Part shown: piece by piece, positions 26,310 to 49,106 of the stretch | Layout: each line of letters begins with the position of its first letter | How positions within the stretch are numbered: position 1 is the first letter of the stretch | Virus record (IMG/VR): IMGVR_UViG_3300027833_000035 | Span: 1-64,000 of that record | Length of the DNA stretch: 64,000 nucleotides | DNA from: a virus | Strand: one strand, 5' to 3' | Notes under the pieces: generated by a model | Database searches by the model: none | Seen by the model: the letters and a program-made list of their open reading frames with translations, nothing else | Told to the model about the DNA's origin: nothing | Position numbers and translations under genes: made by a program

Positions 26310-26356
26310 TTATTATTAGTGTTTGATTAATCTTACACTTGTTTAAAATCTATTTC

Positions 26357-26364
26357 TATTTATA
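26357..26364 (-). promoter_or_regulatory. T4-type late promoter
   Basis: TATTTATA on + strand. Confidence 0.7.
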
Positions 26365-26365
26365 A

Positions 26366-26929
26366 TTAACCACCACGGTACAGATATAAATCAACTGGTA
26401 CACATATTCTAAGACTAGAATAGTAGGGGTTAACATGGTGATATGTAAAGCTTGGGAATATCATATAATCCCCAGTTCTTGGTGTTATTGCTTTTTTATC
26501 AAATACATTATTCCACCAATCATCATAACCGCGATTAGCGTTTGTTCTTGGATCTGAGAAAACAATATCACCGCCAGAGTTTTGGTCCTCGGCTAATATA
26601 TAAAACACACCAGACAAATGAGCGCCCGAGTGATTATGTATAGTCATGTTATAATCTTTACCATGACCAGTAATCCACGCTTTCATTTCATGCGCTTTAT
26701 AATCTTGGATATGTTTTCCGATACTTGCATAGAGATAGCGGTCAAAAGAGCTATACACCATGTCTTTAAATTTATTCATTTCAGGTGAATTATCTTTGAA
26801 TATATTTCCACCGTTTACTTCACCTTCCATGTTATTTAAATCATAGTTAGCAAAGATGTATTCTATCAATCCATCAGTATCAAATTTACCTGAGCCAATC
26901 TTTGTTGGCCACATTTCATTAAATTCCAT
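26366..26929 (-). CDS. 2OG-Fe(II) oxygenase (TIGR02466-like)
   Basis: HNHSGAHLSGVFY, GDIVFSDPR, IFPSFTYHHV, RI. Confidence 0.85.
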   Translation of the reverse strand: MEFNEMWPTKIGSGKFDTDGLIEYIFANYDLNNMEGEVNGGNIFKDNSPEMNKFKDMVYSSFDRYLYASIGKHIQDYKAHEMKAWITGHGKDYNMTIHNHSGAHLSGVFYILAEDQNSGGDIVFSDPRTNANRGYDDWWNNVFDKKAITPRTGDYMIFPSFTYHHVNPYYSSLRICVPVDLYLYRGG

Positions 26930-26954
26930 AGCACCTCTCCATAATATATAAATC

Positions 26955-27008
26955 TATTTATAACATATAAATGGTTGACAAATTTACTTCTATATGTTAT
27001 TATAAATA
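26955..27008. promoter_or_regulatory. divergent promoter region: late promoter (-); sigma70 plus late promoter (+)
   Basis: TATTTATA 26955-26962 (minus late); TTGACA 26975-26980, 17 nt, TGn-TATTAT 26998-27003; TATAAATA 27001-27008. Confidence 0.7.
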
Positions 27009-27034
27009 TATTAGTATATTATGATTGGAACACA

Positions 27035-27499
27035 ATGCTGTTTGAAAACTTTGAAAACTTCCTATTAACAGAAGAATGTTTTAATAACCACGACGTATCG
27101 CATATAGATAACGACGGCAACCAGCATTACCTAGAACATTCAGAATATATTTCTTACCTCGGTCAGGTTACAATTTTACTAGCTAACAGAGCTACTATTA
27201 AAGTTGAACAAGCCGAGAAACTATTTGACTATAACGATAGGACAATACATTTATTTTATAATGATGTAGACGGTCCATCGTTTAAAGAACATACAGATCC
27301 TGTCGATGTTTTAATAGAATGTTTGGATGGTATAAAGGTTTTGGAAGTAGAAGGTGCTACAGTTATTCTGCAGCCAAACCAAAGCGTTTTTATACCTGCA
27401 GGAACAAAGCATAGAGCACTTAATAACAAAAAGGCATTAATGATTTCACATGGCATTCGCGACACCGAAACACTTACTCGTATACGTAAAAACGACTGA
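27035..27499 (+). CDS. minimal JmjC/cupin-4-like oxygenase
   Basis: SFKEHTDPVDV (HxD), G-x-K, FIPAGTKHRA; start moved to ATG 27035. Confidence 0.7.
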   Translation: MLFENFENFLLTEECFNNHDVSHIDNDGNQHYLEHSEYISYLGQVTILLANRATIKVEQAEKLFDYNDRTIHLFYNDVDGPSFKEHTDPVDVLIECLDGIKVLEVEGATVILQPNQSVFIPAGTKHRALNNKKALMISHGIRDTETLTRIRKND

Positions 27500-28478
27500 A
27501 ACCTGCAATCTAAATTGCGCACACTGCTTTACGTCTGGTATCAATGGTAGAAAAATCTACTTTGATGCTGAGAAGACTGCTAACTGGTGCAATGAATTAT
27601 GCGATGGTAATAACGAAATACATTTTGAATACCACGGTGGCGAACCTATATTAGCTCCTATGGCAGACTTGATGAAGTTCTATAATATTACTAAAGAACA
27701 TTGGGGTGACCGATGTACGCATGGTATTACAACTAACTTAGTTTATAAACTTACTGACGAAAGACTTGAGTTTTTAAAAATGTTAGACGGTGGTTCTGTT
27801 GGTACATCTTGGGATCCAAACATTCGTTTCTCTAATGAAAAGCAACGTAAACTATGGGAAGATAACGTCAAACGTTTGGTTGACGAAGGCTGCTTTGTTA
27901 AATGCTTTATATCAGTTTCAAAAGATGTGGTTAAAATGGATCCCATTGAAATTGCTGATTATATGCATTCGCTTGGTGTCGGCGCTATTAATTATGAACG
28001 ATTAACACATGACGGTAATGCAACAATCAACACTGATATTTTTCCACACAACTCTGAGCTTGATGCTTTTTGGATGGATATGCATGAAAAGACTGCTGAC
28101 CATCCCGTTTATAATAGTTTCCTTAACACTGTATACGATAAGTTTAGTAAAGGTCAATTCTTTAATGGTACTTTCTGCAGAGACTGCGAGCAAAAGTTAC
28201 ATACCATCAACGCTGATGGAACTGTAGCCGGCTGCCCTAACACTGCGCCAACACAATGGTATGGTACGATTGATACTCCTGCAAAAGAGGTGCGCCAATC
28301 ACCAAAACGTATGGAAGTTATATCATGTGAAATGCATGAAAGAGATCCACGCTGTTATGATTGCCCTGTGTTTATATATTGCCATTCTGATTGTCATCAA
28401 CTTCAATGGATGGGAGACGTCTGTCCAGCTCCTAAAACATTAATGATGAAACTTGCGAAGGATAAAGGATGGATTTAA
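27450..28478 (+). CDS. radical SAM/SPASM protein (rSAM1)
   Basis: CNLNCAHC, HGGEP; CRDC...GC...CYDCPVFIYCHSDC...C. Confidence 0.93.
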   Translation: MAFATPKHLLVYVKTTETCNLNCAHCFTSGINGRKIYFDAEKTANWCNELCDGNNEIHFEYHGGEPILAPMADLMKFYNITKEHWGDRCTHGITTNLVYKLTDERLEFLKMLDGGSVGTSWDPNIRFSNEKQRKLWEDNVKRLVDEGCFVKCFISVSKDVVKMDPIEIADYMHSLGVGAINYERLTHDGNATINTDIFPHNSELDAFWMDMHEKTADHPVYNSFLNTVYDKFSKGQFFNGTFCRDCEQKLHTINADGTVAGCPNTAPTQWYGTIDTPAKEVRQSPKRMEVISCEMHERDPRCYDCPVFIYCHSDCHQLQWMGDVCPAPKTLMMKLAKDKGWI

Positions 28479-29509
28479 TTATTAAGCCAACCGAGGCCTG
28501 TAACTTTAAATGTACCTTTTGTTCATCAACTGATATTGATGCTGACAAAGCTGGCTTACTTGATTTAGAATATGTTTATAAATTTCTAAAACGTTATCCT
28601 GACACCAATACTATTATTGTAAATGGTGGTGATCCATTAATGGTTGATCCAAAATGGTATTGGGATTTGATTGCTCACCTTGACGAACATGATTACCCTG
28701 CATCAATTAGTTTTACATCAAACCTCTGGCCATTCCTTATTAGACCAGAGAAATGGTTACCTTTATTTCAACACGAAAGATTTGGATGTACTACCTCATT
28801 TCAATATGGTGGTGGAAGATTAAAGGGTGATTACTCTGAGTTTACTGAAAAGGATTTTTGGCGAGTATCAGATGCTATGTTAAAACATACTGGCTCTCGA
28901 CCAGATTTTATTTCTGTAATCGTTGATGAAAACTTTGATGATGCTATTAAAAATGTAGAATTAGCGAAAGAGATGGGAGTCGAGTGCAAACTTAATTATG
29001 CAATGGCTTCTGGTGTTCAAGGCTCTACATTTAGGCTAAGTAAGATATATGAAACCTATATAAAGATATATGATATGGGTTTAGCTGAATACGAATATAA
29101 TACTAAACAAATGATGATAAGGTTAAATAAAAATAGTTGGACTACTTGTCCACAGAATAGACAATGCGATAGTGGTATACGCGCATTTAACCCAGGTGGT
29201 GATTACTATTCATGTGGTTCGTTTGCTGACGATTATGATTACCCTATTGATTTTGAGGAAGAAATGAATGGTGAAATGCAGACACCATTGCAGAATGATC
29301 CAAATATACAGACAATGAAATCAGCTTGCTATACTTGTCCGATGTTTGATATATGTAATGGTTGTAAAAAGACTGTGCGTGATATGAAACGCGAAGGTCA
29401 AGCTGAGGATCATTGTTATCATATGAAAAAACTAGCACCAAGAATACTTGAAATAAACGGCATGGACCCAGGATTGGCAACACCTTATGTTAATGAATCT
29501 ATCAATTAA
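28469..29509 (+). CDS. radical SAM/SPASM protein (rSAM2)
   Basis: KPTEACNFKCTFC, NGGDP; CPQNRQC...YSC...CYTCPMFDICNGC...C. Confidence 0.93.
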   Translation: MDLIIKPTEACNFKCTFCSSTDIDADKAGLLDLEYVYKFLKRYPDTNTIIVNGGDPLMVDPKWYWDLIAHLDEHDYPASISFTSNLWPFLIRPEKWLPLFQHERFGCTTSFQYGGGRLKGDYSEFTEKDFWRVSDAMLKHTGSRPDFISVIVDENFDDAIKNVELAKEMGVECKLNYAMASGVQGSTFRLSKIYETYIKIYDMGLAEYEYNTKQMMIRLNKNSWTTCPQNRQCDSGIRAFNPGGDYYSCGSFADDYDYPIDFEEEMNGEMQTPLQNDPNIQTMKSACYTCPMFDICNGCKKTVRDMKREGQAEDHCYHMKKLAPRILEINGMDPGLATPYVNESIN

Positions 29510-30401
29510 TCCAACATACTATTGTAACTTCGCTTGCGATTTCTGTTACTTAACAACAGAGCAGCTAAACGATAGACATAAAATTACTCCTTTATGGTTA
29601 GAGAATAGCCTACAACAAATTACTGACGAGGTTGGTCATGTTGATTTATATGGTGGAGAAATTGGTTTACTATCACCGGAGTATTATTATTCATTAAAGA
29701 AAGTAATACGTAATCATTACAAAGGCCCAATTAATATTAATACTAACTTGTCGGCATTCCCTGACTTTTTTAGAGATGAGGATGTAACGTTATCAGTATC
29801 ATATGATTTCCATGCCAGAGAAAAAGAGCAGCATGTTTTAAATAATATGATGAATGCCAACAAGGATTTATCTGTATTGATATTAGCCTCGCCAAAAGTG
29901 TTAGAGATGGATGTAGAGTTTATGATTTTTACACTTAATATGATTTCTAATGTTAAATCAGTTGAGATTAAACCATATTCAGTTAATCAGGCAAACCAAC
30001 ATAATGTAACTCATAAAGACTTTGAGGATTTCGTTATTAGGTTTGATGAAGCAAACACTGTAAAGAATTTTAATTTTCAAAACATTGATAACATATACGA
30101 TAGCATAGAAGGCAAGTATGACGCATTTAGTAATGACCATGTTTATATAACACCGCGTGGGAAATTTGGCGTCTTGGAATTCGATAAATACGACAGAGAG
30201 TACTTTAAAGAATACGACACTTACCATGAATATCAAACATGGGCACGTGAAGAACCTGAAAACAATTTGAGCGATATATGTAACGTATGTTCTTATTATG
30301 GGAAATGCTTAACAGAACATTATCGGTATGTACACGACTTAACCAATAGTTGTAATGGATATAAAGGGTTATTAGAATATTATGAAAGAATGGAAAGCTA
30401 G
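29487..30401 (+). CDS. radical SAM protein (rSAM3)
   Basis: NPTYYCNFACDFCY, YGGEI; CNVCSYYGKC...C. Confidence 0.9.
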   Translation: MLMNLSINPTYYCNFACDFCYLTTEQLNDRHKITPLWLENSLQQITDEVGHVDLYGGEIGLLSPEYYYSLKKVIRNHYKGPININTNLSAFPDFFRDEDVTLSVSYDFHAREKEQHVLNNMMNANKDLSVLILASPKVLEMDVEFMIFTLNMISNVKSVEIKPYSVNQANQHNVTHKDFEDFVIRFDEANTVKNFNFQNIDNIYDSIEGKYDAFSNDHVYITPRGKFGVLEFDKYDREYFKEYDTYHEYQTWAREEPENNLSDICNVCSYYGKCLTEHYRYVHDLTNSCNGYKGLLEYYERMES

Positions 30402-30780
30402 ACAAAGCGCGTATCATTTAACAGCATCTTTATTTAAAGACGATTTAACTGATGTAGAAATTAATTGGCAGCCAGATAATATCGTTGAGGATGCACTAAC
30501 GCATTTCAGACAATATGTTGACGAATGGGTCTACCCTGCAAAATCGTATGTAGTTGCTATATGTTATGCCCATTGGTTAAATAGAGATTTTAAAGAACCA
30601 TTCTTTGATGCTCTTAATGACGAAGCCTTATTGTTTAATAATGATCCACACTTTGTTCCATATTGGGCAGACAAAGAAACATATGACGATATACTATTTA
30701 AATTAGACTTTAACGAAAAACTTGGTATGGTACCTGACATATACGAATATTATAAAGAGGAAATGTTATTTGGACTTTGA
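30382..30780 (+). CDS. hypothetical protein in radical SAM operon
   Basis: 132-aa acidic/aromatic ORF overlapping both neighbours. Confidence 0.75.
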   Translation: MKEWKARQSAYHLTASLFKDDLTDVEINWQPDNIVEDALTHFRQYVDEWVYPAKSYVVAICYAHWLNRDFKEPFFDALNDEALLFNNDPHFVPYWADKETYDDILFKLDFNEKLGMVPDIYEYYKEEMLFGL

Positions 30781-31846
30781 AATAACAAAAACACTATTAG
30801 AATCTAAACGTCCGGATATAGCCGAGATTGAGTTGACTTTATTTGAAAACTGTCATCTTAATTGTTCGTTCTGTCATCACGATAAAAAATCTACCGTAGG
30901 TTTGAGTAGGGAAGAGATATTCTCTAAATTGGATTTAGTTGAACAACATGTCATTAAGATGAAAGGCAGAGTTGATATAATCCAAATCAATATGGTTGGC
31001 GGTGAGTTATTCCAAGATAGAATATCAGAATGGGCTTACCCTGTTTACTTTGATTTCCTTGTAGCAATCAAAAAGGTATTTGACGAACATAAGCAAAAGA
31101 TTAAAGTTGTGTGGGTAACATCGTTTCAATTTAGCAAACGTGAAAGAGTACAGAAACTACTCGACGACCTAAACGCTGAAGCAATCCCTTCATATATTAT
31201 ATGTTCATATGACTTTGACGGGCGACCAACAAAAGGTCCATACGCTAAAAATATAGAATACTTTGCTGACTATATCGTATCAATTAATATGGTTGCTACT
31301 ACTTTGTCAATCAAAAAGTTTATGGCAGACGATGATGAGTATTTCCATTACTTATATGAAAAGTTTGACGAATTCTATTTTGATGATTATATTCCAGATC
31401 GTGGATATGATTATATGATACCATCAGATAGTGAGTACCTCGAGTTTTTAAAATTCGTATACCATAACTATCCAGACATTAATCCTATTAAGGATCTCAT
31501 ATATAACGAGAGTAATCACATGCATTGCTTGGCTCTTAATAAGGTTACGATATTCCCAGATAACTCTACATCAAATTGCCGCTGGGATAGATACGATCAA
31601 CGAGATTTTAATACAGAATACAAACCTAAAGATAACGCCGGAATGATGCAAGCATATATGGATGAAAACGGTTGTCTATCTTGTCAGTGGTATAATAAGT
31701 GTGGATTTAGATGCTATACCCAATGGGATTGGAAAAACAGAGAACGCGATTTACCTGACTGCATAATGAGAATGTGGTTTAATTATATGGACAAAACAGG
31801 TCAAAATTTGATAACAGGATTTAATTATGATAAAGAAAAAACTTAA
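30770..31846 (+). CDS. radical SAM/SPASM-like protein (rSAM4)
   Basis: CHLNCSFC, VGGEL; CLSCQWYNKCGFRC...C; start uncertain (TTG 30770 after GAGG, or 30722). Confidence 0.9.
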   Translation: MDFEITKTLLESKRPDIAEIELTLFENCHLNCSFCHHDKKSTVGLSREEIFSKLDLVEQHVIKMKGRVDIIQINMVGGELFQDRISEWAYPVYFDFLVAIKKVFDEHKQKIKVVWVTSFQFSKRERVQKLLDDLNAEAIPSYIICSYDFDGRPTKGPYAKNIEYFADYIVSINMVATTLSIKKFMADDDEYFHYLYEKFDEFYFDDYIPDRGYDYMIPSDSEYLEFLKFVYHNYPDINPIKDLIYNESNHMHCLALNKVTIFPDNSTSNCRWDRYDQRDFNTEYKPKDNAGMMQAYMDENGCLSCQWYNKCGFRCYTQWDWKNRERDLPDCIMRMWFNYMDKTGQNLITGFNYDKEKT

Positions 31847-32546
31847 ACTTGATTTTTATACATCACACAAAACGCTTATAGAATTACAACCAATTCAATC
31901 TAGAACTAAACCACCATCATGGTGGAAGTCTATTAAGAATTCGTATAGCCAATTTAGGTCTAGGGCTGGTACTAAAGTTCCAACTCCAACGGTTAAAACT
32001 TGTCCTGGGATTGTTGATTATATTCGCAAACCTATTGTTCTTAAACTATGGTCGGATGGTATTTTTAAAGTAAAACCAAACGGTGATGTTGAATGTATTG
32101 AACCCTTACAAGGATCTGGCATACTTGATGGATCTCAACATGAACGTAGACAATTTGGTGATACATTATATCCAAACTGTACTGTATTTAAACTACATGG
32201 TCCATGGTCAGTTAAATCAAGTGAACGTAAAGAGTTTATGATTACTGAATGTCATTACACTGAAGATTTGCGTAAGCATGGTATTTTAATCTCACCTGGG
32301 ATTACAAACTTTTATGACCAACATACTTTAAACTGTTTTTTAGTATTTCCAATTAAAGACGAAGAATATACTGTAACGCTTAAATATGGTACACCTATTA
32401 TGTCAATATATCCAATGCACGAAATGGAACTTGATATTAAAATGCATGAGGTAGCTACACGTCAGGAATGGCAAGAAATACAAAACGTATTCCCATCAAC
32501 CTTTATCGGTCGTTATCACTCCCGGAAACACACACGCGGTAAGTGA
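31827..32546 (+). CDS. conserved phage hypothetical protein
   Basis: PSWWK...TVKTCPGIVDY...LWSD...FKL..PW...GTPI motifs. Confidence 0.7.
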   Translation: MIKKKLKLDFYTSHKTLIELQPIQSRTKPPSWWKSIKNSYSQFRSRAGTKVPTPTVKTCPGIVDYIRKPIVLKLWSDGIFKVKPNGDVECIEPLQGSGILDGSQHERRQFGDTLYPNCTVFKLHGPWSVKSSERKEFMITECHYTEDLRKHGILISPGITNFYDQHTLNCFLVFPIKDEEYTVTLKYGTPIMSIYPMHEMELDIKMHEVATRQEWQEIQNVFPSTFIGRYHSRKHTRGK

Positions 32547-33524: not shown

Positions 33525-34662
33525 GGTAAACCTCATCATCATATAAACCAATTACATCTTTATTTAAAATACATTCTTTTCTTCCATCAAATACGGTATC
33601 CATAATCATTGGAACCATTCTATTCACGCATATATTTAAATACTTACAATCGCCGCATTCTTTGCTTCCACTATTTTCAATCTGTTTAACAACGATTTCG
33701 TCTTTCTTTTTTAGAATATAATCAGTTATATCCGCGTCAGGCAGCATCAACCAACCATTATCAACTTTAAAATCATCTGTATGGATCTGAGCATTCTCAT
33801 ATATGAATGGAGACAAATACATATCACCGTGGTATATACTGACTACCGAATAATGAAATGCTTTATGTGATACATCACCTTGTAAGAAATGGAATTTGTT
33901 TTTAAACTTATGTGGATCTGCAGCCAACCGAGTTAGCATATCGTTCCATTCAAATAGTTTATTTCCATGTTTTGCACTATGATTAAAAGAACGTACTACT
34001 GATGGCAATACTTCAATAACAGTTTCATACCTACTCCTAACAAACTCAATGGCAGGGAATAGTATATCCTCTACACCTTGTACGATATTAGTAGCCATAC
34101 TTATTTCAAAGTTTAAAGAACTATTCTTAAACGTTTCAACTCTTTCGTCGAGTGCATCTAAGTATACTTGATCGTTCATTAATCTATTTAAATCCAAAGC
34201 GATTTGTACATCCCATGCTTCAACGACCTTACCCAGCGGTGAGTTTTCAATAGATTTTATCTTACCCTCAATATCCTTTTCAGATAATGATCCAAGTATA
34301 GAACAGTTATGTTGGATATTTCTATTATCCTCAGGCATCATTAATATAGCATCAGCAAGCCTTTGATTATTAATAATCTCTTCTAAATTTTGAGCACCAT
34401 AAAAGTCAGTAGGTCCGATTACAATATCGTCCAATACAACATCAGTTCTATCTTTTAATTCATACGCCAAGGAATGAAACGTTGCGATTGAGTTTGGGTT
34501 CCAATTACCTTTACGTTTAACAAAACAACCCGGACACATATATGAACAGCCTTCAAGTATTTCAAGGTTGACTTGTATTTTATATTCTTTCATATTGTCG
34601 ATTGAAGTAAATTCCTCACCACGTCCACCGTCTACAATATTTTTCCAATCATTATTTAACAT
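33508..34662 (-). CDS. divergent radical SAM protein (rSAM8, GPTD type)
   Basis: EILEGCSYMCPGCFV, IGPTDFY; CGDCKYLNIC...C. Confidence 0.8.
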   Translation of the reverse strand: MLNNDWKNIVDGGRGEEFTSIDNMKEYKIQVNLEILEGCSYMCPGCFVKRKGNWNPNSIATFHSLAYELKDRTDVVLDDIVIGPTDFYGAQNLEEIINNQRLADAILMMPEDNRNIQHNCSILGSLSEKDIEGKIKSIENSPLGKVVEAWDVQIALDLNRLMNDQVYLDALDERVETFKNSSLNFEISMATNIVQGVEDILFPAIEFVRSRYETVIEVLPSVVRSFNHSAKHGNKLFEWNDMLTRLAADPHKFKNKFHFLQGDVSHKAFHYSVVSIYHGDMYLSPFIYENAQIHTDDFKVDNGWLMLPDADITDYILKKKDEIVVKQIENSGSKECGDCKYLNICVNRMVPMIMDTVFDGRKECILNKDVIGLYDDEVYHGNSY

Positions 34663-35809
34663 ATGATATATCCTTTAAACGTTTTAGTTCTGGGTCGTCG
34701 TCATCAGTAACCAAAAACTTTTTACGATAACCATTCTTATCGTTTTCAACTGAATAGCCATCCCATTCATACATTGTTTGAGCAGGACCATTATAGTTGT
34801 TTATATTATTTAGCATATTCTCTTTAGGAGCAATGCAGCGATCTACTCCGAGGTAATCCCTTAACATTATTATTTTTCTATTATAACAACTAAAGAACAA
34901 CGGACAATCCTCACACTCAGTTCCTTTTGCTCTTTCAATTTGATGTTCAACCATTGGAACAACGTCATTAAAAGATTTTACTTTAAACATATCATCGTAT
35001 ATAGCCATGTTCTCATACATGAATGGACTTAAATACCATTCACCACGTTTATAGTTTAACACAGTGTAATTAATACCTGCATGAGAATGGTCTACCATAA
35101 TATTGTTTAGCTTTGACTCTTGGTGCCATGTGCTAAAGTATTCATTAAACTCATCGAGTGTCTTTAAGATTATGTTTGCTTTATGAGAACGAGATACTGA
35201 CGGAATAAAATCCAATATAGTATCAAAACGTTTTACTGCTTGATCGTGTAATGCTTCATAATCTAATCCATAATCTTTAATATTAACAACAAACGTATAA
35301 GTAACCTCATGCATAATATGTTTATCTATATAAGCTAACATATCTGATATATGTTTCGTGTATTCATCAGTAAAGAATTTATGTGGATTTGTAGCGATAC
35401 CAATTTCTATTTCAGTATCGAGGTTAATGTTATCCATAAGAAAATTACAGAACTTTTTAATATCACCATCAATAAGAGTTGACACAAAAGCTAGGATAGG
35501 AGAGTTTTCATTAATAATATCTACGAGTTCTGGCATTACTTCATAGAAATTTTCTGATGCCAAAAAGTCTGTTGGACCGATTAATATTTCATCAACAAGT
35601 ATTCCTTGGTCAGTAATCGAACGTATAAACTCTTTTGCCATAAATATTTGGCTTTTATCGCTAGCGTTCCCCCGTCTATGTACAAAGCACCCAGGGCACT
35701 TGTGGTGACAACCGTCTAGTATATCCATTTGAATTTTGACGGCACTGACGGGCTTAGTTTGGGTCTCTGTGGTCATCTCATAATAGAGATTATTTTTAAT
35801 CAGAGGCAT
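34652..35809 (-). CDS. divergent radical SAM protein (rSAM7, GPTD type)
   Basis: DILDGCHHKCPGCFV, IGPTDFL; CEDCPLFFSC...C. Confidence 0.8.
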   Translation of the reverse strand: MPLIKNNLYYEMTTETQTKPVSAVKIQMDILDGCHHKCPGCFVHRRGNASDKSQIFMAKEFIRSITDQGILVDEILIGPTDFLASENFYEVMPELVDIINENSPILAFVSTLIDGDIKKFCNFLMDNINLDTEIEIGIATNPHKFFTDEYTKHISDMLAYIDKHIMHEVTYTFVVNIKDYGLDYEALHDQAVKRFDTILDFIPSVSRSHKANIILKTLDEFNEYFSTWHQESKLNNIMVDHSHAGINYTVLNYKRGEWYLSPFMYENMAIYDDMFKVKSFNDVVPMVEHQIERAKGTECEDCPLFFSCYNRKIIMLRDYLGVDRCIAPKENMLNNINNYNGPAQTMYEWDGYSVENDKNGYRKKFLVTDDDDPELKRLKDISYVK

Positions 35810-36818
35810 ACATATATTCCTTCAATGCGACGCAGTTATCTAATCCTCGCGACTCCATATATAAATGTATATTACGTTCAGCACAGCTCATCATATATTT
35901 GCAGCCATTACAATCATCAACCTGTTGAGCATATTCAATATTATCATATAAAGTATTTGCATCCATCGTTGTTTCAAAATTTGGAGTTCTTTGAATAATA
36001 ACATCATATAAGAATGGATTTAAATATAGTTTATTATTATAAAAGCTATAGTTTTGGCAGCCATATCCATTAAACTTTGCATCAAAGAATGTATAAAGAT
36101 TAAGCCATTTTTTATCAATGTTTTGCTCAACCATTTCGCGTCTAAAGTTTGCTAGGTGCTGTTCCACCTTACCGCGTGCATTCCTATCTGTTAGAAACGA
36201 CGGCGTAATTATAACTGGTGCATTATAATCATCAAATATTCGTTGACATAAATCATTATAGCCGATACGTTTAAATACATCTTTATGGTAATTAACTCTA
36301 AATTGAACTGAACCTAATTCAAACATTTTGAGTTTACGGTTCCAATCGTCTAGTTCTCCATCAAGGTACTTATCTATATCTAAAACGATTTTAAAATCAA
36401 TATCAGGTACTCTGTGAATGCCTTCGTATAAACTCCAAATCTTATCGAGCTTATCCTTTATTTCAGCATATGGTTGAAGTAACGTTGATGTAAATCCAAC
36501 TGCCGATATTTCATAAAGCTTTTTCATATATGGATGGTTCATAATCTCGTAGAAGTTCTCTGCGTCAAAAATGTCAGTAGGACCAACCGTTATTTCGTCA
36601 GGATAATAAGAACCATTAATTAAAAGATTATAAAGCGTTTCTAAATTATCAGCCTTAGTAAGGTTCTTACGTGGAATAAAACAACCTGGGCACGACTGAG
36701 CGCAGCCATGTAATATGTCTAAGTTTATTTCAGTACGTAAAAAGTCTGTATTAATAGGGCTTTTATTTTCATCATACGTATAGTAACCTGCGTATGTTTT
36801 ATTCAGTTTCACTGTCAT
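35796..36818 (-). CDS. divergent radical SAM protein (rSAM6, GPTD type)
   Basis: DILHGCAQSCPGCFI, VGPTDIF; CNGCKYMMSC...C; start set at MTVKL. Confidence 0.8.
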   Translation of the reverse strand: MTVKLNKTYAGYYTYDENKSPINTDFLRTEINLDILHGCAQSCPGCFIPRKNLTKADNLETLYNLLINGSYYPDEITVGPTDIFDAENFYEIMNHPYMKKLYEISAVGFTSTLLQPYAEIKDKLDKIWSLYEGIHRVPDIDFKIVLDIDKYLDGELDDWNRKLKMFELGSVQFRVNYHKDVFKRIGYNDLCQRIFDDYNAPVIITPSFLTDRNARGKVEQHLANFRREMVEQNIDKKWLNLYTFFDAKFNGYGCQNYSFYNNKLYLNPFLYDVIIQRTPNFETTMDANTLYDNIEYAQQVDDCNGCKYMMSCAERNIHLYMESRGLDNCVALKEYMYASD

Positions 36819-37635
36819 TAGTATTGGCCTCGGCTTCCGATTGAATATCAGCTTTAATGTCAGCCTCGATTTCCTCTTCAGTTTTTGGTTTTGGAATATC
36901 AACACTAATAATAAATCCAGGAGGCATCATTGATAAAATGTTATTTGTAATATTAGCTTGTGTCAATACATAAAACAAATCTTTACCAAAGTATGCTGGC
37001 TTATCGTTATACATTTGTTTATTATATTGCATTTTAAATCCAAGCATAGAACAAACTAATAGGAAACCATCCCAACCGTCAGTAAGGAGACGCGCAACGT
37101 TTGGACCACACACTGTTGGTTTATCAACTACTGTAATTTGGTCAACTGCGTCTTTTACTTCAATTTCAATTGCTTTGTTTTCATCTGATAAATTTTCGTG
37201 GAATTTACAGATTACGAATGGAATAAGTTCAGCCATGTTATTACAAACTTCATCAATCAAATCAATATGTTTATCAACAAAATCGTGTAACTGATCTTTA
37301 CTAAATATGTCAAGTAATTGCTGTTCTAAACCATTAAACTCATATCTATATCTAGCTTTAATAGCCATCACAACAAACCGTGATAGGAAAGGGCTATCAA
37401 TAATAAAGTCTGATTTAATATATTCCAACAACAAGTCTTCATCGACTTGAGCAAAAGTTGTTTTAAAGTTAGTGTTTGCTAAATAAATTAGAATATGTTT
37501 AGCTGACAGCTTTTCTTTAGATGCCAAATAATCTACCCATAAAACAAAATCTTCATCTTCTTCTTTTACCTTATAGATCTCAACTAAATTCTGAGGTGCT
37601 AATGGTAAAGTATATATATTTTTTTCTTCACTCAT
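36799..37635 (-). CDS. hypothetical protein in radical SAM operon
   Basis: 278-aa acidic ORF with no recognised motif. Confidence 0.75.
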   Translation of the reverse strand: MSEEKNIYTLPLAPQNLVEIYKVKEEDEDFVLWVDYLASKEKLSAKHILIYLANTNFKTTFAQVDEDLLLEYIKSDFIIDSPFLSRFVVMAIKARYRYEFNGLEQQLLDIFSKDQLHDFVDKHIDLIDEVCNNMAELIPFVICKFHENLSDENKAIEIEVKDAVDQITVVDKPTVCGPNVARLLTDGWDGFLLVCSMLGFKMQYNKQMYNDKPAYFGKDLFYVLTQANITNNILSMMPPGFIISVDIPKPKTEEEIEADIKADIQSEAEANTNDSETE

Positions 37636-37650
37636 AATAAAATCACTTTC

Positions 37651-38754
37651 TTATATCAATGGGTATTTATGAATTAAATATGGTATTCTGTTTTGGCGTT
37701 TTGAAAAGAACTGAACATCTGTATTGATTAACGCTAAGTCTTCTCTAATATTATCTGTGTTAAAGTTTCTTTCTAAAACCTTTTTAACGATAGGGAACAC
37801 ATTATTGATTTCAGTATATAGATCCATGTATTCCCAACCATCCGCTGTAGTATCAGCTTTGTTTTGGTGAACCGCAATAAAATCAGCATCGTCTTTAACT
37901 TTATTCCATAACTCTTCTAATAAGTAAAACGCAAGTGTGTAGTTAGATTTATTAGCAGCATTTACATATACATCTTTAAAGAATTGTTTTTTGTCTGTAG
38001 CCCAATCATTCGCGTCAGTTGCATTGGCATTCATATAATCAATGACTGACATAATGTATGCTGAATAGTGACGACGTGAAGTAAAGTGTTCCATAACATC
38101 TCTTGCCATAACTGGTGAATGGATAGTAAACTTCTCAACGATTAATTCTGAAATCGGTGTACATGGATAAAAATCATTTAAGAAGAACAATAAGTCATAA
38201 CTAAAGTTTTTACCATTTTGATATGTAATTACCCAAGGTGTTTCGCCTTCAGCATTTAATAAAGTATTCGTGTGGTTTCTAACATCGTTATAAACTGTTG
38301 AGTCACTCATTAATGATAATACTAAATCTTGGTTAATCACTGCTTCCATATAATGGGCAGTCATAGAATTAATTGTTGTTGCATCGGCATCAGGGTAGAA
38401 ACCAGAGGCTGTTAATAATCCAGCGGTATATTTAGCAAATACTTTAATCATATCCTCTTCGTCTGTAAACATAAGGATACGTTTATCACTGTTTTGAATA
38501 TAGTCAGCATTAGCAACGTCTTCCCATTGCTCAAAATCCAATAGTGAAGCAGCATTAGAACGTGCGTTATTTGCCAACAATTCGTATTCAGCAGGCTGAA
38601 GGAATGCATCTTCAATATCAGGATGAACGATTGTAATTCTTCTTGGCTCAGCAGTATGATAAAAAGAATTTAATTCACCAATTACTGTTTCAACGTTTTG
38701 CGTATTTGTAATATACTTTTTATTATTTAAGTAATATAAACTCTGTCCAATCAT
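37651..38754 (-). CDS. hypothetical protein in radical SAM operon
   Basis: 367-aa ORF; start set at MIGQ after AGGAG. Confidence 0.75.
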   Translation of the reverse strand: MIGQSLYYLNNKKYITNTQNVETVIGELNSFYHTAEPRRITIVHPDIEDAFLQPAEYELLANNARSNAASLLDFEQWEDVANADYIQNSDKRILMFTDEEDMIKVFAKYTAGLLTASGFYPDADATTINSMTAHYMEAVINQDLVLSLMSDSTVYNDVRNHTNTLLNAEGETPWVITYQNGKNFSYDLLFFLNDFYPCTPISELIVEKFTIHSPVMARDVMEHFTSRRHYSAYIMSVIDYMNANATDANDWATDKKQFFKDVYVNAANKSNYTLAFYLLEELWNKVKDDADFIAVHQNKADTTADGWEYMDLYTEINNVFPIVKKVLERNFNTDNIREDLALINTDVQFFSKRQNRIPYLIHKYPLI

Positions 38755-39926
38755 AATTTTGCTCCTAATTTTTCTATTGCGTCGTCGTTCCAAGTGAAAT
38801 CGTATGGATTATATTCAGCAAGAACATCTTTGTTCAATACACAGCCATTAACATTTAATGATTCTTGGGCTTCAAAGATCAGTCTACTTGCGCAGGCAAC
38901 TGCGAATTTACAGTCAGCACAGTCTTTTACTTTACTCGACTTATTTATACCTTTTGTTACTAATTCATTTTTACGATCTAATATTTCTTCGAATGTTAAA
39001 CCAGTAACATCTAAATTTTTATTACCTAAGAAAAACGCTTGTTCATGTAGCATTACATTTAGGTGTGTGGTTGGACCATTTTCTCCTGGAACAATTGTAA
39101 GTCCAACAAAGTTAATTGAGTTACAATAAAGATTAGCCATTGACATAACAGTTTCTTGTGCGTTATCTTTATCAATAACTCTACCAAGGAAATCGTTCCA
39201 TCCAAACAAATTCTTTCTTTGAACCAATTGTGAGTTTGCCCTAGAAAAAGCAGGGTTCATTTCTACGATTGTTTCATATTCATTTACAGATTTTTGGATA
39301 ATCTTATTGTATGTTTCTTTATCAATCTTTTTGCCAACAACGTTAGAAGCCTGAAGTGTCCACGACCAATCCATTTGTTTTGGCGTATTGTTTTTAAAGA
39401 ACTCTACCTTTTCCATAACGTTATCAAAGTATTCATCATCATTTAACATCTGCTCTACTCTGCCGATTGGCATAATAAATTCGATAATCATTTCGCGGCG
39501 ATACTTATCTTCATCGTCAAGTACAGCAAAGATTTCTTTTACTTTATCCATAGTTGCTAAATCAAATTTAGCAGGTGCCGCGATACGAGCTCCGGTATGT
39601 TCTCTCATAATCTCTTGGACTACTGAGTTATTTAATACTGACTCTGTATTCTTGGCAGTGAAAAAGTCTGTTGGTCCAATAACGAATTCTCTTAGGTTAA
39701 GGCCAGTTCTTTTTACACCATCGGCAAGTTCTTTTGCTCTATCAATAATTTGTTGGTTCATAGCAGGGTCAATGTTTTTATCAACGAAACAACCTAGGCA
39801 GCCGTGATTACATCCAGCCAAAACTTCCATTTGAATTAAAACATCAAACTTAGTAGCATCCGAAGGTGTTAGACTTTCTGGTCCTGAGTACCTCATTTGC
39901 TTACAATATGATTTTTGCATTGACAT
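38751..39926 (-). CDS. divergent radical SAM protein (rSAM5, GPTD type)
   Basis: EVLAGCNHGCLGCFV, IGPTDFF; CADCKFAVAC...C; start set at MSMQK, 1 nt after precursor stop. Confidence 0.8.
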   Translation of the reverse strand: MSMQKSYCKQMRYSGPESLTPSDATKFDVLIQMEVLAGCNHGCLGCFVDKNIDPAMNQQIIDRAKELADGVKRTGLNLREFVIGPTDFFTAKNTESVLNNSVVQEIMREHTGARIAAPAKFDLATMDKVKEIFAVLDDEDKYRREMIIEFIMPIGRVEQMLNDDEYFDNVMEKVEFFKNNTPKQMDWSWTLQASNVVGKKIDKETYNKIIQKSVNEYETIVEMNPAFSRANSQLVQRKNLFGWNDFLGRVIDKDNAQETVMSMANLYCNSINFVGLTIVPGENGPTTHLNVMLHEQAFFLGNKNLDVTGLTFEEILDRKNELVTKGINKSSKVKDCADCKFAVACASRLIFEAQESLNVNGCVLNKDVLAEYNPYDFTWNDDAIEKLGAKL

Positions 39927-39927
39927 G

Positions 39928-40308
39928 TTATCTTCTTCCTCTCGAACTGTGACAACTACTATGGCAGCTGGCATGACAGTAATAAGCATTGATTGTTCGG
40001 TTACTCATTCTGCCTTCTATTAAGTCGACTGTTCTTCTAGTTAAATCTTCTAATGTATCAACAATATCTTGTGCGTAAATTATCTGACCTGAATTAATGC
40101 CACCATCTACATAGTTATTATATACATAATAGTTTGCATTCACAAATTCAAATCTATGATAATGCCATTGGCCTGTGGTATAACTTGTAACACCTGTACC
40201 ATTAACATATGCGTTAACATAAATTCCAACATTTCTATCAAACGTTCTTAATTGTTGTCCACCATACGTCATTACATACGAATTAACGTCACCTCTATCC
40301 ATAGTCAT
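39928..40308 (-). CDS. CHSS-repeat protein B, putative radical SAM substrate
   Basis: 126 aa ending NAYYCHASCHSSCHSSRGRR; paralogue of 40308-40688. Confidence 0.8.
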   Translation of the reverse strand: MTMDRGDVNSYVMTYGGQQLRTFDRNVGIYVNAYVNGTGVTSYTTGQWHYHRFEFVNANYYVYNNYVDGGINSGQIIYAQDIVDTLEDLTRRTVDLIEGRMSNRTINAYYCHASCHSSCHSSRGRR

Positions 40309-40688
40309 TAGCGGCGACCTCGCGAGCTATGACACGATGAGTGACAACTTGAATGGCAGTAATATGCGTTAATAGTTCTATTTGATAATCTTCCTTCAAC
40401 CAAATCAACAGTCCTCCGTACGACGTTACGAATTGAATCAATAACATTACCTGAACGAATAATTCCGCCGGTGTATATACCACTAGACATATACCCATTA
40501 TAATAAGAATATGAAGCGTTTACAAACTCGAACCGTGTATAATGCCATTGGCCTGTGGTATAACTGTATCGTCCACCGTTTGCATATACATAAGCATTAA
40601 TATAAAACCCAACGGTCTTATCAAAGGTTCGTAATTGTCGACCACATTGAGTCTGTAAACTACTATTTAACTGTGCATAACTTGGCAT
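40308..40688 (-). CDS. CHSS-repeat protein A, putative radical SAM substrate
   Basis: 126 aa ending NAYYCHSSCHSSCHSSRGRR; starts 1 nt after tail fibre stop. Confidence 0.8.
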   Translation of the reverse strand: MPSYAQLNSSLQTQCGRQLRTFDKTVGFYINAYVYANGGRYSYTTGQWHYTRFEFVNASYSYYNGYMSSGIYTGGIIRSGNVIDSIRNVVRRTVDLVEGRLSNRTINAYYCHSSCHSSCHSSRGRR

Positions 40689-40689
40689 A

Positions 40690-49068: not shown

Positions 49069-49106
49069 TCGGTTCACTCTCCCCAGTTAGGCTTTATTCT
49101 TAAATC

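What the first reader, a model, noticed from the sequence alone, without database searches (positions are those of the whole stretch)
26366..40688. Phage-encoded RiPP-like system: nine radical SAM proteins, two oxygenases and two CHSS-repeat substrates fused to the tail fibre operon
Seen: a 14-kb block with 9 ORFs carrying CxxxCxxC plus C-terminal Cys clusters (4 on +, 5 on -), a 2OG-Fe(II) oxygenase, a JmjC-like cupin, 4 unknown ORFs, and two tandem 126-aa proteins ending in a Cys/His/Ser repeat. The minus operon follows the giant tail fibre gene with 1-nt gaps, under a T4 late promoter. Established: rSAM/SPASM enzymes next to short Cys- or His-Xaa-Ser-rich proteins are RiPP maturases (ranthipeptide/sactipeptide thioethers, triceptide cyclophanes, Hxs systems). 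Inference: the phage uses a multi-enzyme radical pathway to crosslink or decorate tail-associated proteins, or to make a modified peptide late in infection. I know of no characterised system with this architecture.
Basis: partly seen in the sequence, partly recalled or inferred. Interest (0 to 1): 0.95.

Follow-up and report, generated by a model that had tools for sequence, protein, structure and literature searches.

The report
Radical-SAM kit maturing Cys-His-tailed phage proteins
Behind its giant tail-fibre gene this marine T4-like phage carries nine radical-SAM enzymes, two iron oxygenases and helper proteins built around two small proteins that end in an invariant (Cys-His-x-Ser)x3-RGRR tail, an undescribed kit that also occurs in jumbo phages and predatory bacteria and most likely modifies that tail chemically.

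Summary
Observation confirmed: 26366-40688 holds 9 CxxxCxxC ORFs (4 on +, 5 on -), a 2OG oxygenase, a cupin, 4 ORFs without family, and two 126-aa paralogs ending CHSSCHSSCHSSRGRR directly behind a 2795-aa fibre gene. The window is a fragment of an uncultured T4-superfamily marine myovirus. The tail CHxSCHxSCHx[SA]R[GS]RR-COOH is invariant on unrelated N-domains and always travels with the same enzymes: 47 of 47 viral loci, 23 of 23 bacterial-genome loci and 4 of 4 cultured jumbo phages examined (RSL2, DT01, Atu_ph07, Phosso). Starting from one enzyme (rP2), no informative locus lacks the tail. The core is tail protein + a new helical partner (u278) + four SPASM-type rSAMs + u132 + cupin/2OG; this lineage added a second substrate and five derived rSAMs. 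The kit also sits in chromosomes of Bdellovibrionota. Best reading (0.55): multi-step radical maturation of the tail of a late, probably fibre- or virion-associated protein. The chemistry and function are not shown. The closest known system is the bacterial HXS defence (HxsA/B/C/D), but membership was tested and not met. I found only passing mentions in print. The scan has found this system before on other DNA, with like conclusions.

The parts
26366..26929 (-). 2OG-Fe(II) oxygenase (TIGR02466-like), divergent from the plus operon
   Evidence: Pfam 2OG-FeII_Oxy_5 E 2.7e-13. TIGR02466 39.8 bits, below the 62.5 cut-off. phrog_81 E 1.1e-25. TATAAATA at 26955-26962 (-) lies upstream.
26975..27499 (+). 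Cupin (longest ORF; the probable ATG start is 27035)
   Evidence: Pfam Cupin_2 E 8.6e-8; JmjC hits are below cut-off. phrog_8014. Orthologues stand in front of rP1 in type C loci, RSL2, DT01, Atu_ph07 and Phosso. TATAAATA at 27001-27008 (+).
27450..28478 (+). rP1, radical SAM/SPASM enzyme; in type C loci the gene directly before the tail protein
   Evidence: NCBIfam DarE E 1.9e-14, anSME 2.2e-8, SPASM domain 25.7 bits vs 27, all far below equivalog cut-offs. Family alignment: invariant C19/C23/C26, GGEP and C-terminal Cys. Profile vs PDB: ChlB 5e-9, anSME 7e-8 over the full length, CteB 1.4e-7.
28469..29509 (+). rP2, radical SAM/SPASM enzyme, the best conserved member (51-78% identity across phages and Bdellovibrionota)
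   Evidence: Pfam Radical_SAM 39.7 bits, above cut-off. DynA E 1.9e-12, anSME 1.9e-10. Alignment A5. 344 relatives in viral contigs.
29487..30401 (+). rP3, radical SAM enzyme with one C-terminal CxxCx5C...C cluster
   Evidence: CxxxCxxC and C-terminal Cys seen. Radical_SAM 25.7 bits, below cut-off. Orthologues in all architectures.
30382..30780 (+). u132, core protein of unknown function
   Evidence: No Pfam or NCBIfam family. phrog_20737, unknown function, E 3.3e-33. HMM hits in 40 loci including RSL2, DT01 and Bdellovibrionota.
30722..31846 (+). rP4, radical SAM enzyme with a SPASM-like C-terminal Cys cluster
   Evidence: CxxxCxxC and 7 C-terminal Cys. phrog_1802 E 8e-21. Orthologues in all architectures.
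31827..32546 (+). u239, unknown, found only in window-like (type A) loci
   Evidence: No Pfam or NCBIfam family. phrog_7084, unknown function. HMM hits in 15 loci.
32496..33551 (-). rM5, derived radical SAM paralogue
   Evidence: CxxxCxGCF, IGPTD, C-terminal CxxCx5C...C. 25% identical to rM3. Family profile aligns with the rP1 profile over 288 columns, E 2.6e-4, probability 42%.
33508..34662 (-). rM4, derived radical SAM paralogue
   Evidence: As for rM5; 32% identical to rM3.
34652..35809 (-). rM3, derived radical SAM paralogue
   Evidence: Radical_SAM 17.1 bits, below cut-off. phrog_31457, unknown function. tblastn hits at 20-23% identity in RSL2-like phages and DT01.
35796..36905 (-). rM2, derived radical SAM paralogue (probable start 36818)
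   Evidence: Orthologues of 340 aa in L009 start at the MxVKLNK position.
36799..37635 (-). u278, universal partner protein of the tail protein, mostly helical, no known fold
   Evidence: Iterated HMM finds it in 61 loci of every architecture. 679 cluster representatives at E<=1e-3. AF2 pLDDT 89.7, pTM 0.81. Foldseek PDB best E 0.2. VIA best Z 5.0.
37651..38793 (-). u380, unknown, only in type A/B loci (probable start 38754)
   Evidence: No family. HMM hits in 37 loci. The Atlas holds it from residue 14 on and gives no usable hit.
38751..39989 (-). rM1, derived radical SAM paralogue next to the substrates (probable start 39926, 1 nt after the chB stop)
   Evidence: The L011 orthologue starts right after chB.
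39928..40308 (-). chB, 126-aa tail-bearing protein; tail codons 39931-39978
   Evidence: Ends CHSSCHSSCHSSRGRR. Family alignment A1.
40308..40688 (-). chA, 126-aa tail-bearing protein; tail codons 40311-40358
   Evidence: 170 relatives. The tail is invariant in 30 of 30 aligned. AF2 model pLDDT 78 with the tail below 55. No fold match. TATAAATA at 40755-40762 (-), 67 nt upstream.
40690..49077 (-). Giant (2795 aa) putative tail fibre; its last ~140 aa recur in the gene upstream of the kit in other phages
   Evidence: phrog_18345 tail fiber E 1.8e-12; phrog_22593 at residues 2656-2763. No Pfam family. C-terminal domain shared by 47 ORFs, including Atu_ph07 and Phosso. TATAAATA at 49107-49114 (-).

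Best explanation
The block is a lineage-expanded copy of a conserved radical-SAM protein-maturation cassette. Its substrate is a C-terminal module of one helix plus the 16-residue tail (Cys-His-x-Ser)x3-Arg-Gly-Arg-Arg-COOH, here present on two paralogous 126-aa proteins.

Inferred mechanism: late in infection the tail proteins are made together with the fibre. The universal partner u278 and the SPASM-type enzymes rP1-rP4 engage the disordered tail. In this lineage five derived one-auxiliary-cluster paralogues (rM1-5) and u380 act as well. 5'-deoxyadenosyl radicals abstract hydrogens and install covalent changes at the invariant Cys, His and Ser. The likeliest changes are thioether or carbon-carbon cross-links of the ranthipeptide, sactipeptide or three-residue-cyclophane kind. 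The cupin and 2OG oxygenase(s) would add oxidative tailoring. The product stays attached to its variable N-domain as a compact, basic, cross-linked cap on a protein that works with the fibre or virion.

Shown: the gene content, the invariance of the tail, its two-way co-occurrence with the enzymes, and the enzymes' kinship to peptide and protein maturases. Inferred: that the tail is the substrate, the chemistry, the late timing, and the virion or fibre destination.
For: 1. Tail invariance on unrelated bodies. C, H, S and RGRR are invariant in 30 of 30 aligned relatives, in 59 distinct proteins of viral loci and in 84 distinct proteins overall. These sets were picked by the motif, so this shows constancy around it, not frequency. 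The type A and type C families align only over the last 54 columns (hhalign probability 99%).
2. Tail to enzymes. 47 of 47 viral loci have at least one CxxxCxxC ORF and 38 of 47 have four or more; the other 9 are cut by contig ends. 23 of 23 genome loci have rP/rM homologues. Background is 0 of 22 ORFs in the window outside the block and 1 of 52 in Bdellovibrionota flanks, that one being rP3 of the cluster.
3. Enzymes to tail. Of 80 rP2-anchored viral loci, 18 have the tail gene in the locus and 11 more have it elsewhere on the record, with 0 hits for the reversed-pattern control. In the remaining 51 the contig ends before the expected position. 4 of 4 cultured phage groups examined have it right after rP1.
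4. Enzyme type. rP1 and rP2 match DarE, DynA, anSME, PapB and cyclophane maturases best. The rP1 profile matches ChlB, anSME (full length) and CteB. The rM profile aligns end to end with rP1.
5. The tail is predicted disordered in the AF2 model (pLDDT 67, 53, 47 over the last blocks), as a core peptide would be.
6. Invariant Ser in an H-x-S register. In the bacterial HXS system an rSAM-dependent +8 Da change maps to SHRSS, and the S, H and S mutants lose function (PMC13128918, section 9).
7. Fibre link and timing. There is a 1-nt gap to the fibre gene. The fibre C-terminal ~140 aa is conserved upstream of the kit in 47 ORFs. TATAAATA stands before the fibre, chA, cupin and 2OG genes. No terminator-like site lies at gene ends in the minus operon.
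Against: No modification has been observed anywhere.

Seven of the nine rSAMs miss the Pfam cut-off, and all nine are far below every NCBIfam equivalog cut-off. The rM family has no significant PDB sequence match (best E 0.1) and lacks the GGE motif, so its activity is unproven.

Nine enzymes for 2 x 16 residues is more than any known RiPP needs. This may mean other substrates, such as the fibre itself.

No recognisable RiPP recognition element, protease or exporter was found. u278 has no conserved Cys, His or Asp.

The fibre link is absent in RSL2-like phages, DT01 and Bdellovibrionota, so a fibre-specific role cannot be general.

TATAAATA is not enriched in the window as a whole (16 vs 9.96 expected).

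The viral loci are mostly one marine lineage, so the counts are not independent events. Only the best 80 of 344 rP2 relatives were examined.
Confidence: 0.55

Rival explanations
1. The tail is a precursor core that is cut off after modification and released as a small modified peptide or a peptide-derived cofactor, in the manner of PQQ or mycofactocin (recalled comparison). The N-domain would serve only as a large leader.
For: The core sits at the very C-terminus and is predicted disordered. Many tailoring enzymes are present: 4-9 rSAMs, a cupin and 2OG oxygenases, plus a B12-binding rSAM in Bdellovibrionota loci. The sequence is identical in very different organisms, as expected for a product with a fixed chemical role.
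Against: No protease or transporter family was found among the core genes. The N-domains are folded (AF2 pLDDT 75-90 over residues 1-100), 110-290 aa long, and diversify like structural or recognition proteins. The genes sit in structural-gene clusters behind fibre genes.
Confidence: 0.13
2. The tail is not modified at all. Its three Cys and three His bind metal or an iron-sulfur cluster, for example as an assembly nucleus of a trimeric fibre accessory or as an electron or cluster donor. The rSAM enzymes act on another substrate such as the fibre protein.
For: The composition is Cys/His-rich with period 4. There are more enzymes than the tail seems to need. The conserved fibre C-terminal domain offers an alternative target. 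His-based metal sites in phage fibre tips are known (recalled, not from a call).
Against: Ser, a poor metal ligand, is as invariant as Cys and His, and the RGRR end is invariant too. The kit keeps the tail protein where no fibre domain is near: Bdellovibrionota, RSL2 and DT01. In type C loci the tail gene sits between rP1 and u278, the usual place of a substrate.
Confidence: 0.15
3. The matured protein is a phage-borne analogue of the bacterial HXS effector. It would be a basic, HxS-repeat protein that binds DNA at the envelope, used for superinfection exclusion or in the phage's own genome delivery.
For: Shared logic with HXS: HxS repeats, basic residues and rSAM maturation. HxsA binds DNA and blocks entry (PMC13128918, sections 9-10). 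The kit occurs in agents that breach Gram-negative envelopes, namely phages and Bdellovibrionota.
Against: No signal-peptide-like segment: 1 of 84 tail proteins has a 15-aa hydropathy window above 2.0, and that one has a doubtful start. No peptidoglycan-binding or other Pfam domain. No membership in the HxsA, B, C or D families. Only three repeats, each preceded by Cys.
Confidence: 0.1

Closest known systems
Bacterial HXS antiphage system (HxsA effector; rSAM enzymes HxsB and HxsC; HxsD). Li et al., Nat Commun 2026, PMC13128918 (read: abstract, sections 9 and 10)
   Same: A protein, not a short peptide, carries His-x-Ser repeats rich in basic residues and is matured by several co-encoded radical SAM enzymes plus a small partner. 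The invariant Ser-His-x-Ser register matters.
   Different: The enzymes are not HxsB or HxsC (33.8 vs 370 bits and 23.3 vs 267.9 bits). There is no HxsA or HxsD match. The repeats number three, each headed by Cys, and stand at the extreme C-terminus followed by RGRR. There is no signal peptide or peptidoglycan-binding domain. The kit has 4-9 rSAMs plus oxygenases and is encoded by phages and predators, not by defending hosts.
rSAM/SPASM peptide and protein maturases: anSME, CteB/PapB (sacti- and ranthipeptides), DarE/DynA, ChlB
   Same: rP1 and rP2 have CxxxCxxC, GGE and a 7-8-Cys SPASM region, and align with these enzymes over their full length. The substrate candidate is Cys-rich, C-terminal and disordered.
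   Different: Scores are far below every equivalog cut-off. There is no N-terminal recognition domain. The substrate is a folded 126-306-aa protein. Five to nine enzymes act in one locus. The rM branch has lost GGE and half of the SPASM region.
Triceptides (three-residue cyclophanes made by 3-CyFE rSAM enzymes on aromatic-x-x motifs, including His-containing ones): recalled from memory; NCBIfam names seen
   Same: H-x-S is an aromatic-x-x triplet repeated in tandem, as in Fxs, Hxs and Grr precursors. rP1 gives weak hits to the AmcB, YhhB and FxsB models.
   Different: The hits are 20-28 bits against cut-offs of 370-445. Each triplet is preceded by an invariant Cys, which triceptides do not need. 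No cyclophane has been shown.
Accessory proteins encoded after long-tail-fibre genes in T-even phages (gp38-type adhesins or chaperones): recalled, a positional analogy only
   Same: Small proteins are encoded directly behind the distal fibre gene. They have a variable body and a conserved part that could dock to a conserved fibre end.
   Different: There is no sequence or fold similarity. gp38-type proteins have no rSAM partners.

Membership tests
Radical SAM superfamily (PF04055) | CxxxCxxC cluster motif near the N-terminus | tested here: met
   Present in 9 of 9 ORFs. Invariant in the rP1 family (C19/C23/C26) and in the rM family (C34/C38/C41).
Radical SAM superfamily (PF04055) | Score above the Pfam gathering cut-off (29.5 bits) | tested here: inconclusive
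   Only rP2 passes (39.7). rP1 scores 22.2, rP3 25.7, rP4 17.3 and rM3 17.1. rM1, rM2, rM4 and rM5 have no PF04055 hit. The rM profile links to the rP1 profile at E 2.6e-4, probability 42%.
Radical SAM superfamily (PF04055) | GGE-type SAM-binding motif | tested here: inconclusive
   GGEP is invariant in rP1 and GGDP in rP2. In the rM family IGPTD stands at the aligned position.
SPASM/twitch subfamily (TIGR04085) | C-terminal domain with Cys ligands for one or two auxiliary 4Fe-4S clusters | tested here: inconclusive
   TIGR04085 scores 25.7 (rP1) and 23.1 (rP2) against a cut-off of 27. Seven invariant C-terminal Cys in rP1 and eight in rP2. rP3 and rM have only CxxCx5C...C. Cluster binding is not testable here.
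HXS system (TIGR03976-03979) | HxsB and HxsC equivalog rSAM enzymes | tested here: not met
   Best scores are HxsB 33.8 bits (cut-off 370) and HxsC 23.3 bits (cut-off 267.9).
HXS system (TIGR03976-03979) | HxsA effector family and HxsD partner | tested here: not met
   No NCBIfam hit for chA, chB, u132, u239, u278 or u380 at E<=0.1, other than unrelated weak ones. Type C tail proteins give 0 families.
HXS system (TIGR03976-03979) | Tandem His-x-Ser repeats in the matured protein | tested here: met
   Three H-x-S units are invariant.
Anaerobic sulfatase-maturating enzyme (TIGR03942) | Equivalog score and a C/S-x-P/A-x-R substrate motif (motif recalled) | tested here: not met
   33.6 bits (rP1) and 40.3 bits (rP2) against a cut-off of 349. 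The tail has no such motif.
Ranthipeptide/sactipeptide maturases (PapB NF047865; CteB) | Equivalog score; Cys-rich short precursor | tested here: not met
   PapB 28.8 bits against a cut-off of 340. The CteB PDB hit, E 1.4e-7, covers only the N-terminal 106 positions. The precursor is a 126-aa folded protein.
Triceptide 3-CyFE maturases (YhhB, FxsB, AmcB, GrrM) | Equivalog or subfamily score | tested here: not met
   27.6, 24.5 and 20.8 bits against cut-offs of 425, 445 and 370.
T4-type late transcription unit | TATAAATA shortly upstream of the first gene and no terminator inside | tested here: inconclusive
   Motifs at 49107, 40755 and 26955 (-) and at 27001 (+), but there is no overall enrichment. 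The terminator scan gives 10 against 6.4+-2.6 expected, none at gene ends. RNA-library contigs cover the block but cannot prove transcription.

The most novel reading that the evidence does not exclude
Phages of at least three unrelated lineages and predatory Bdellovibrionota share a dedicated radical-SAM pathway. It would build a new kind of cross-linked Cys/His/Ser knot with an Arg-rich end on the C-terminus of otherwise unrelated proteins. This knot would be a functional device of the invasion apparatus: a metal- or nucleic-acid-binding, protease-proof cap on fibre or virion proteins and on the predator's counterpart, used when a Gram-negative envelope is breached. That would be the first enzymatically cross-linked virion protein made by radical chemistry, and a mirror image of the host's HXS defence.
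Probability: 0.2. Interest if true: 0.92.

Novelty: new variant of a known kind. Interest (0 to 1): 0.8.

Why it matters
Radical-SAM maturation is known for small secreted peptides, cofactors, a few enzymes and, since 2026, one bacterial antiphage effector. Here the same logic appears on the attacker's side.

The kit costs the phage about 14 kb. It is conserved from marine T4-like phages to 490-kb jumbo phages and predatory bacteria. It is aimed at a 16-residue sequence that is invariant in every tail protein collected, apart from the variable x positions, A for the last Ser and S for G in cultured phages.

If the tail is modified, this would define a new post-translational chemistry, two new protein families (u278, u132) and a derived rSAM branch without the GGE motif. 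It might also define a new principle of virion or fibre construction.

Several carriers are cultured, so the question is directly testable by mass spectrometry.

Tried and rejected
Megablast of the whole block and tblastn of chA against the 50,697 phage records gave nothing. The tail proteins of cultured phages were found only by reading ORFs next to rSAM hits.

Fold of the chA body: Foldseek PDB gave no hit at E<=0.001. The best was the 3gw6 intramolecular chaperone, E 0.12, TM 0.20. VIA wide gave a best Z of 5.4. I draw no conclusion about the fold.

Fold of u278: Foldseek best E was 0.2. VIA best was anSME 4k36, Z 5.0, with several other rSAM enzymes among the top 50 at Z 3-4.3. hhalign against the rP1 and rM profiles gave nothing (probability below 1%). 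A 'dead rSAM' reading is therefore not supported.

The profile of type C tail proteins against PDB gave 0 hits at E<=1. The rM profile against PDB gave nothing below E 0.1. The Atlas look-up of u380 gave no usable hit.

Complex prediction of rP1 with chA returned 'no answer' (score 0.00, controls not run). It counts neither for nor against binding.

The rP2 tree (30 rows including 4 rP1 outgroup rows) has an unresolved backbone. The 8 Bdellovibrionota rows fall on one side of a branch with only 69/91 support. No donor or direction of transfer can be stated.

Virion presence: earlier notes of this scan say the tail protein is in the particle of one cultured phage. The Atu_ph07 paper (PMC6102473, passages read) reports 131 virion proteins, mostly in CDS 31-76, 170-215 and 284-329, but the list is in Table S5, which is closed. 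I counted CDS from the annotated lysin (taken as gp141), which makes the tail protein CDS 170. I could not verify this count, because the next genes are annotated 'hypothetical', not baseplate. I therefore do not use it as evidence.

RNA: contigs of four RNA-Seq libraries from four studies cover 27-30 of 30 bins of 26300-46299. One 2,655-nt contig spans 38066-40720. The tool warns that DNA can be present in such libraries, so this is only a weak hint of expression.

Searches for print: searches found no paper on the tail motif or the cassette. There are only passing mentions of 'radical SAM cassettes' in pelagimyophage host-recognition clusters (PMC7029224, passages) and gene lists in jumbo-phage papers (PMC11898562 and PMC8066314, passages). 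For PMC13692751 (protein thioether cross-links by a SPASM enzyme) I saw only the listing and the start of the abstract. Subscription journals and supplements were not searchable.

Rejected readings: QueE-, NrdG- or MoaA-type cofactor or nucleotide enzymes, whose hits are 15-28 bits over the Cys motif only. Prophage or contamination as the explanation of the Bdellovibrionota loci, because two long contigs carry PilQ/PilM, LepA, MurC, KatG and a histidine kinase around the kit. The Rhodobacteraceae, Marinovum, Rickettsiales and Methanobacteriota MAG contigs, by contrast, look like binned phage DNA with fibre genes.

Full report
WHAT THE WINDOW IS. The window is the first 64 kb of a 72.9-kb IMG/VR virus record estimated 33% complete. 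It encodes T4-type major head protein, portal, sheath, sheath stabiliser and large terminase. The terminase is 56% identical to that of Sinorhizobium phage phiM12 and about 50% identical to those of marine myophages. GC content is 32-40% over most of the window. It is therefore an uncultured marine T4-superfamily myovirus. The block lies in the fibre-rich region that a pelagimyophage study calls the host recognition cluster. [quoted passage not shown]

OBSERVATION. Nine ORFs carry CxxxCxxC near the N-terminus and a C-terminal Cys cluster. The motif occurs in 9 of 12 ORFs of at least 200 aa inside the block and in 0 of 22 outside it.
- Pfam calls the minus-strand gene at 26366 a 2OG-FeII_Oxy_5 protein and the plus-strand gene at 26975 a Cupin_2 protein. 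The JmjC label rests on sub-threshold hits.
- Four ORFs have no Pfam or NCBIfam family. I call them u132, u239, u278 and u380.
- The two 126-aa proteins (chA, chB) are 62% identical and both end CHSSCHSSCHSSRGRR.
- chA starts 1 nt after the stop of a 2795-aa gene. That gene matches a PHROG tail-fibre family (E 1.8e-12) and is followed upstream by further fibre genes.

THE ENZYMES. I name the plus-strand enzymes rP1-rP4 and the minus-strand ones rM1-rM5.
- rP1 and rP2 are SPASM-type. Their best NCBIfam matches are DarE, DynA, anSME, PapB and cyclophane maturases (E 1e-14 to 1e-6), all far below equivalog cut-offs.
- The rP1 family keeps the three cluster Cys, GGEP and seven C-terminal Cys invariant. 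Its profile hits ChlB, anSME over the full length, and CteB in the PDB.
- The five rM proteins are paralogues, 25-32% identical. They carry CxxxCxGCF, IGPTD in place of GGE, and a single CxxCx5C...C[AP]PK cluster.
- The rM proteins have no significant PDB or Pfam match. Their profile nevertheless aligns end to end with the rP1 profile (288 columns, E 2.6e-4, probability 42%). I read them as a derived branch of the same stock, with activity unproven.

THE TAIL IS A CONSERVED MODULE. chA has 170 relatives in metagenomes. In 30 aligned sequences the body is 43-72% identical to chA, but C, H, S and RGRR of the last 16 residues never vary. A scan of viral contigs gave 47 loci.
- 59 distinct proteins from those loci carry the tail. 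Across all loci held there are 84 distinct tail proteins: 82 with three repeats, 2 with four, all ending RGRR.
- These sets were collected through the motif. They therefore show what surrounds it, not how often it occurs.
- The surroundings differ. Besides the 125-140-aa chA type there are 187-306-aa proteins with no similarity to it. Profile comparison aligns only the last 54 columns, that is one helix plus the tail (probability 99%).
- The AF2 model of chA is confident for the body and poor for the tail. Neither Foldseek nor VIA finds a known fold.
- No signal-peptide-like segment is present.

CO-OCCURRENCE, BOTH WAYS.
- From the tail: all 47 viral loci hold CxxxCxxC ORFs. 38 hold four or more, and the other 9 are cut short by contig ends.
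- From an enzyme: rP2 has 344 relatives in viral contigs, of which the best 80 were fetched. 18 show the tail gene within the locus. 11 more show it elsewhere on the record, with 0 hits for the reversed-pattern control (50 of the 62 remaining records were searched). In all 51 others the contig ends before the place where the architecture predicts the gene. So I found no informative counter-example, though 264 more distant relatives were not examined.
- Among cultured phages, rP2 homologues occur in 15 records. I examined four groups: Ralstonia phage RSL2, Pseudomonas phage pPa_SNUABM_DT01, Agrobacterium phage Atu_ph07 and Sinorhizobium phage Phosso. All four encode, directly after the rP1 orthologue, a 178-306-aa protein ending in the tail, with A for the last Ser in DT01 and RSRR in Atu_ph07 and Phosso.
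- The papers on these phages only list the cupin, radical SAM and 2OG genes as accessory genes (PMC11898562 and PMC8066314, passages).

ARCHITECTURES AND CORE.
- Type A (this window): fibre, chA, chB, rM1, u380, u278, rM2-5, convergent with cupin, rP1-3, u132, rP4, u239. The 2OG gene is divergent.
- Type B: one tail gene, all genes co-directional, three or four rM.
- Type C: cupin, rP1, tail protein, u278, one more unknown, rP4, rP2, rP3, u132 and extra 2OG genes, with zero to two rM. In one sub-form it runs fibre, tail protein, u278 and so on.
- An iterated HMM finds u278 in 61 loci of every type, usually next to the tail gene, and u132 in 40 loci. u380 and u239 are confined to types A and B.
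- The u278 profile finds 679 cluster representatives among 1.84 billion proteins, 196 of them at E<=1e-30. Its AF2 model is confident (pLDDT 89.7) but matches no solved fold convincingly.
- The core is therefore the tail protein, u278, rP1-4 and u132, with cupin and 2OG. The second substrate, five rM and u380 are an expansion in this lineage.

BEYOND PHAGES. A pattern scan of one genome per prokaryotic species found 23 stretches. All 23 have rP/rM homologues beside them.
- Thirteen are titled Bdellovibrionota.
- Two long contigs (299 and 382 kb) carry the kit between ordinary chromosomal genes: PilQ/PilM, LepA and MurC on one, KatG, a histidine kinase and a transglutaminase-elicitor-family protein on the other. 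There it comes with a B12-binding rSAM.
- In a sample of the phylum, 7 of 401 genomes have the tail pattern, with 0 for the control. The kit is thus sporadic there.
- Several other MAG hits look like binned phage DNA. One contig of a Dysosmobacter isolate has a many-repeat variant, and its rP2 is sister to that of phage DT01.
- The rP2 tree does not resolve who gave the kit to whom.

LINK TO THE FIBRE AND TIMING. The last ~140 residues of the giant fibre (2655-2795) recur at 32-62% identity at the end of the gene that precedes the kit in 47 ORFs. Those genes range from 258 to 3194 aa in full-length ORFs and include Atu_ph07 and Phosso. The domain does not occur in the RSL2, DT01 or Bdellovibrionota loci.
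- TATAAATA, the T4 late-promoter consensus (recalled), stands 30 nt before the fibre start and 67 nt before chA. It also stands before the 2OG and cupin genes in the divergent gap. The motif is not enriched overall.
- No terminator-like hairpin lies at a gene end in the minus operon.
- Contigs from four RNA-Seq libraries cover the block, which is only a weak hint of transcription.

INTERPRETATION. The data fit best a protein-maturation pathway whose substrate is the helix-plus-tail module (confidence 0.55 for the whole statement, about 0.7 for 'the tail is a substrate of some of these enzymes').
- The invariance of Ser alongside Cys and His, and the H-x-S register, point to covalent chemistry rather than simple metal binding.
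- The nearest characterised case is the bacterial HXS defence. There HxsB/HxsC with HxsD install a +8 Da change on SHRSS of the HxS-repeat effector HxsA, which then binds DNA in the periplasm (PMC13128918).
- The phage kit works like it in outline but is not a member. The HxsA, B, C and D models do not match. The repeats differ, there is no export signal, and the enzyme set is larger.
- The rivals remain open: a released peptide or cofactor, a plain metal-binding tail with another substrate, or an HXS-like DNA-entry function.
- The scan has met the same system on other DNA before and reached similar views. I saw those notes after my own analysis. Their claim of virion presence I could not verify.

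NOVELTY. My six literature searches found no description of the tail motif, of u278 or u132, or of the cassette as a unit. It is a new variant of a known kind, rSAM-dependent maturation of a ribosomal product. It has new partners and a new motif, and it sits in a virion-gene context.

Noticed in passing
window 25580-25915 (-) and 25920-26309 (-): Two tandem DUF7936 paralogues (E 8.7e-13 and 3.4e-9) lie just beyond the 2OG gene. With the 347-aa and 410-aa ORFs next to them they keep this position beside the kit in type C loci (L047, L052, L135-L153).
   Followed up: partly
window 55577-60277 (-): A 1566-aa fibre protein with ten collagen triple-helix stretches and a C-terminal Peptidase_S74 intramolecular chaperone domain.
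   Followed up: no
window 48664-49077 (N-end) and 40690-41112 (C-end) of the fibre gene: The giant fibre's last ~140 aa (starting near ...RWADLAERY...) form a conserved domain without a Pfam family (phrog_22593, unknown function). It recurs on fibres of 258-3194 aa in front of the cassette.
   Followed up: partly
L066 (Dysosmobacter segnis BX15 contig, 4268 bp): A variant tail protein with many CHxS-type units interrupted by short NV(P)V linkers and ending ARGRR. Its neighbouring rP2 is sister to that of Pseudomonas phage DT01 (100/99), which suggests phage or contaminant DNA in that assembly.
   Followed up: partly
L079 2153-3880 (G001 contig C4) and 516-649-aa ORFs in type C phage loci (L044, L045, L136, L153): The Bdellovibrionota cassette includes a B12-binding radical SAM protein (KedN5-like, E 1.7e-24). 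The ORFs of similar size in the phage type C loci were not tested.
   Followed up: partly
L078 9284-17173 (G001 contig C4): In one Pseudobdellovibrio MAG the cassette lies about 2 kb from a type IV pilus assembly operon (PilQ secretin ... PilM). This may be chance.
   Followed up: no
u278 model m7e4ba0b98284 (window 36799-37635): Six radical SAM enzymes (anSME, ChlB, Elp3, TokK, DesII, CteB) are among the top 50 structural neighbours, but all at Z 3.0-5.0. Profile comparison shows no relation.
   Followed up: yes
P0190, P0192, P0198, P0204, P0212 (u278 relatives of 472-604 aa): Some u278 homologues carry long acidic, low-complexity N-terminal extensions. The nearest viral contig has the length of Ralstonia phage RSF1.
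   Followed up: partly
window 8591, 9626, 10362, 11271, 15418, 22436, 26357 (all minus strand): TATAAATA lies a few tens of bases upstream of the head, portal-region, sheath and other structural gene starts. This fits T4-type late promoters across the window.
   Followed up: partly
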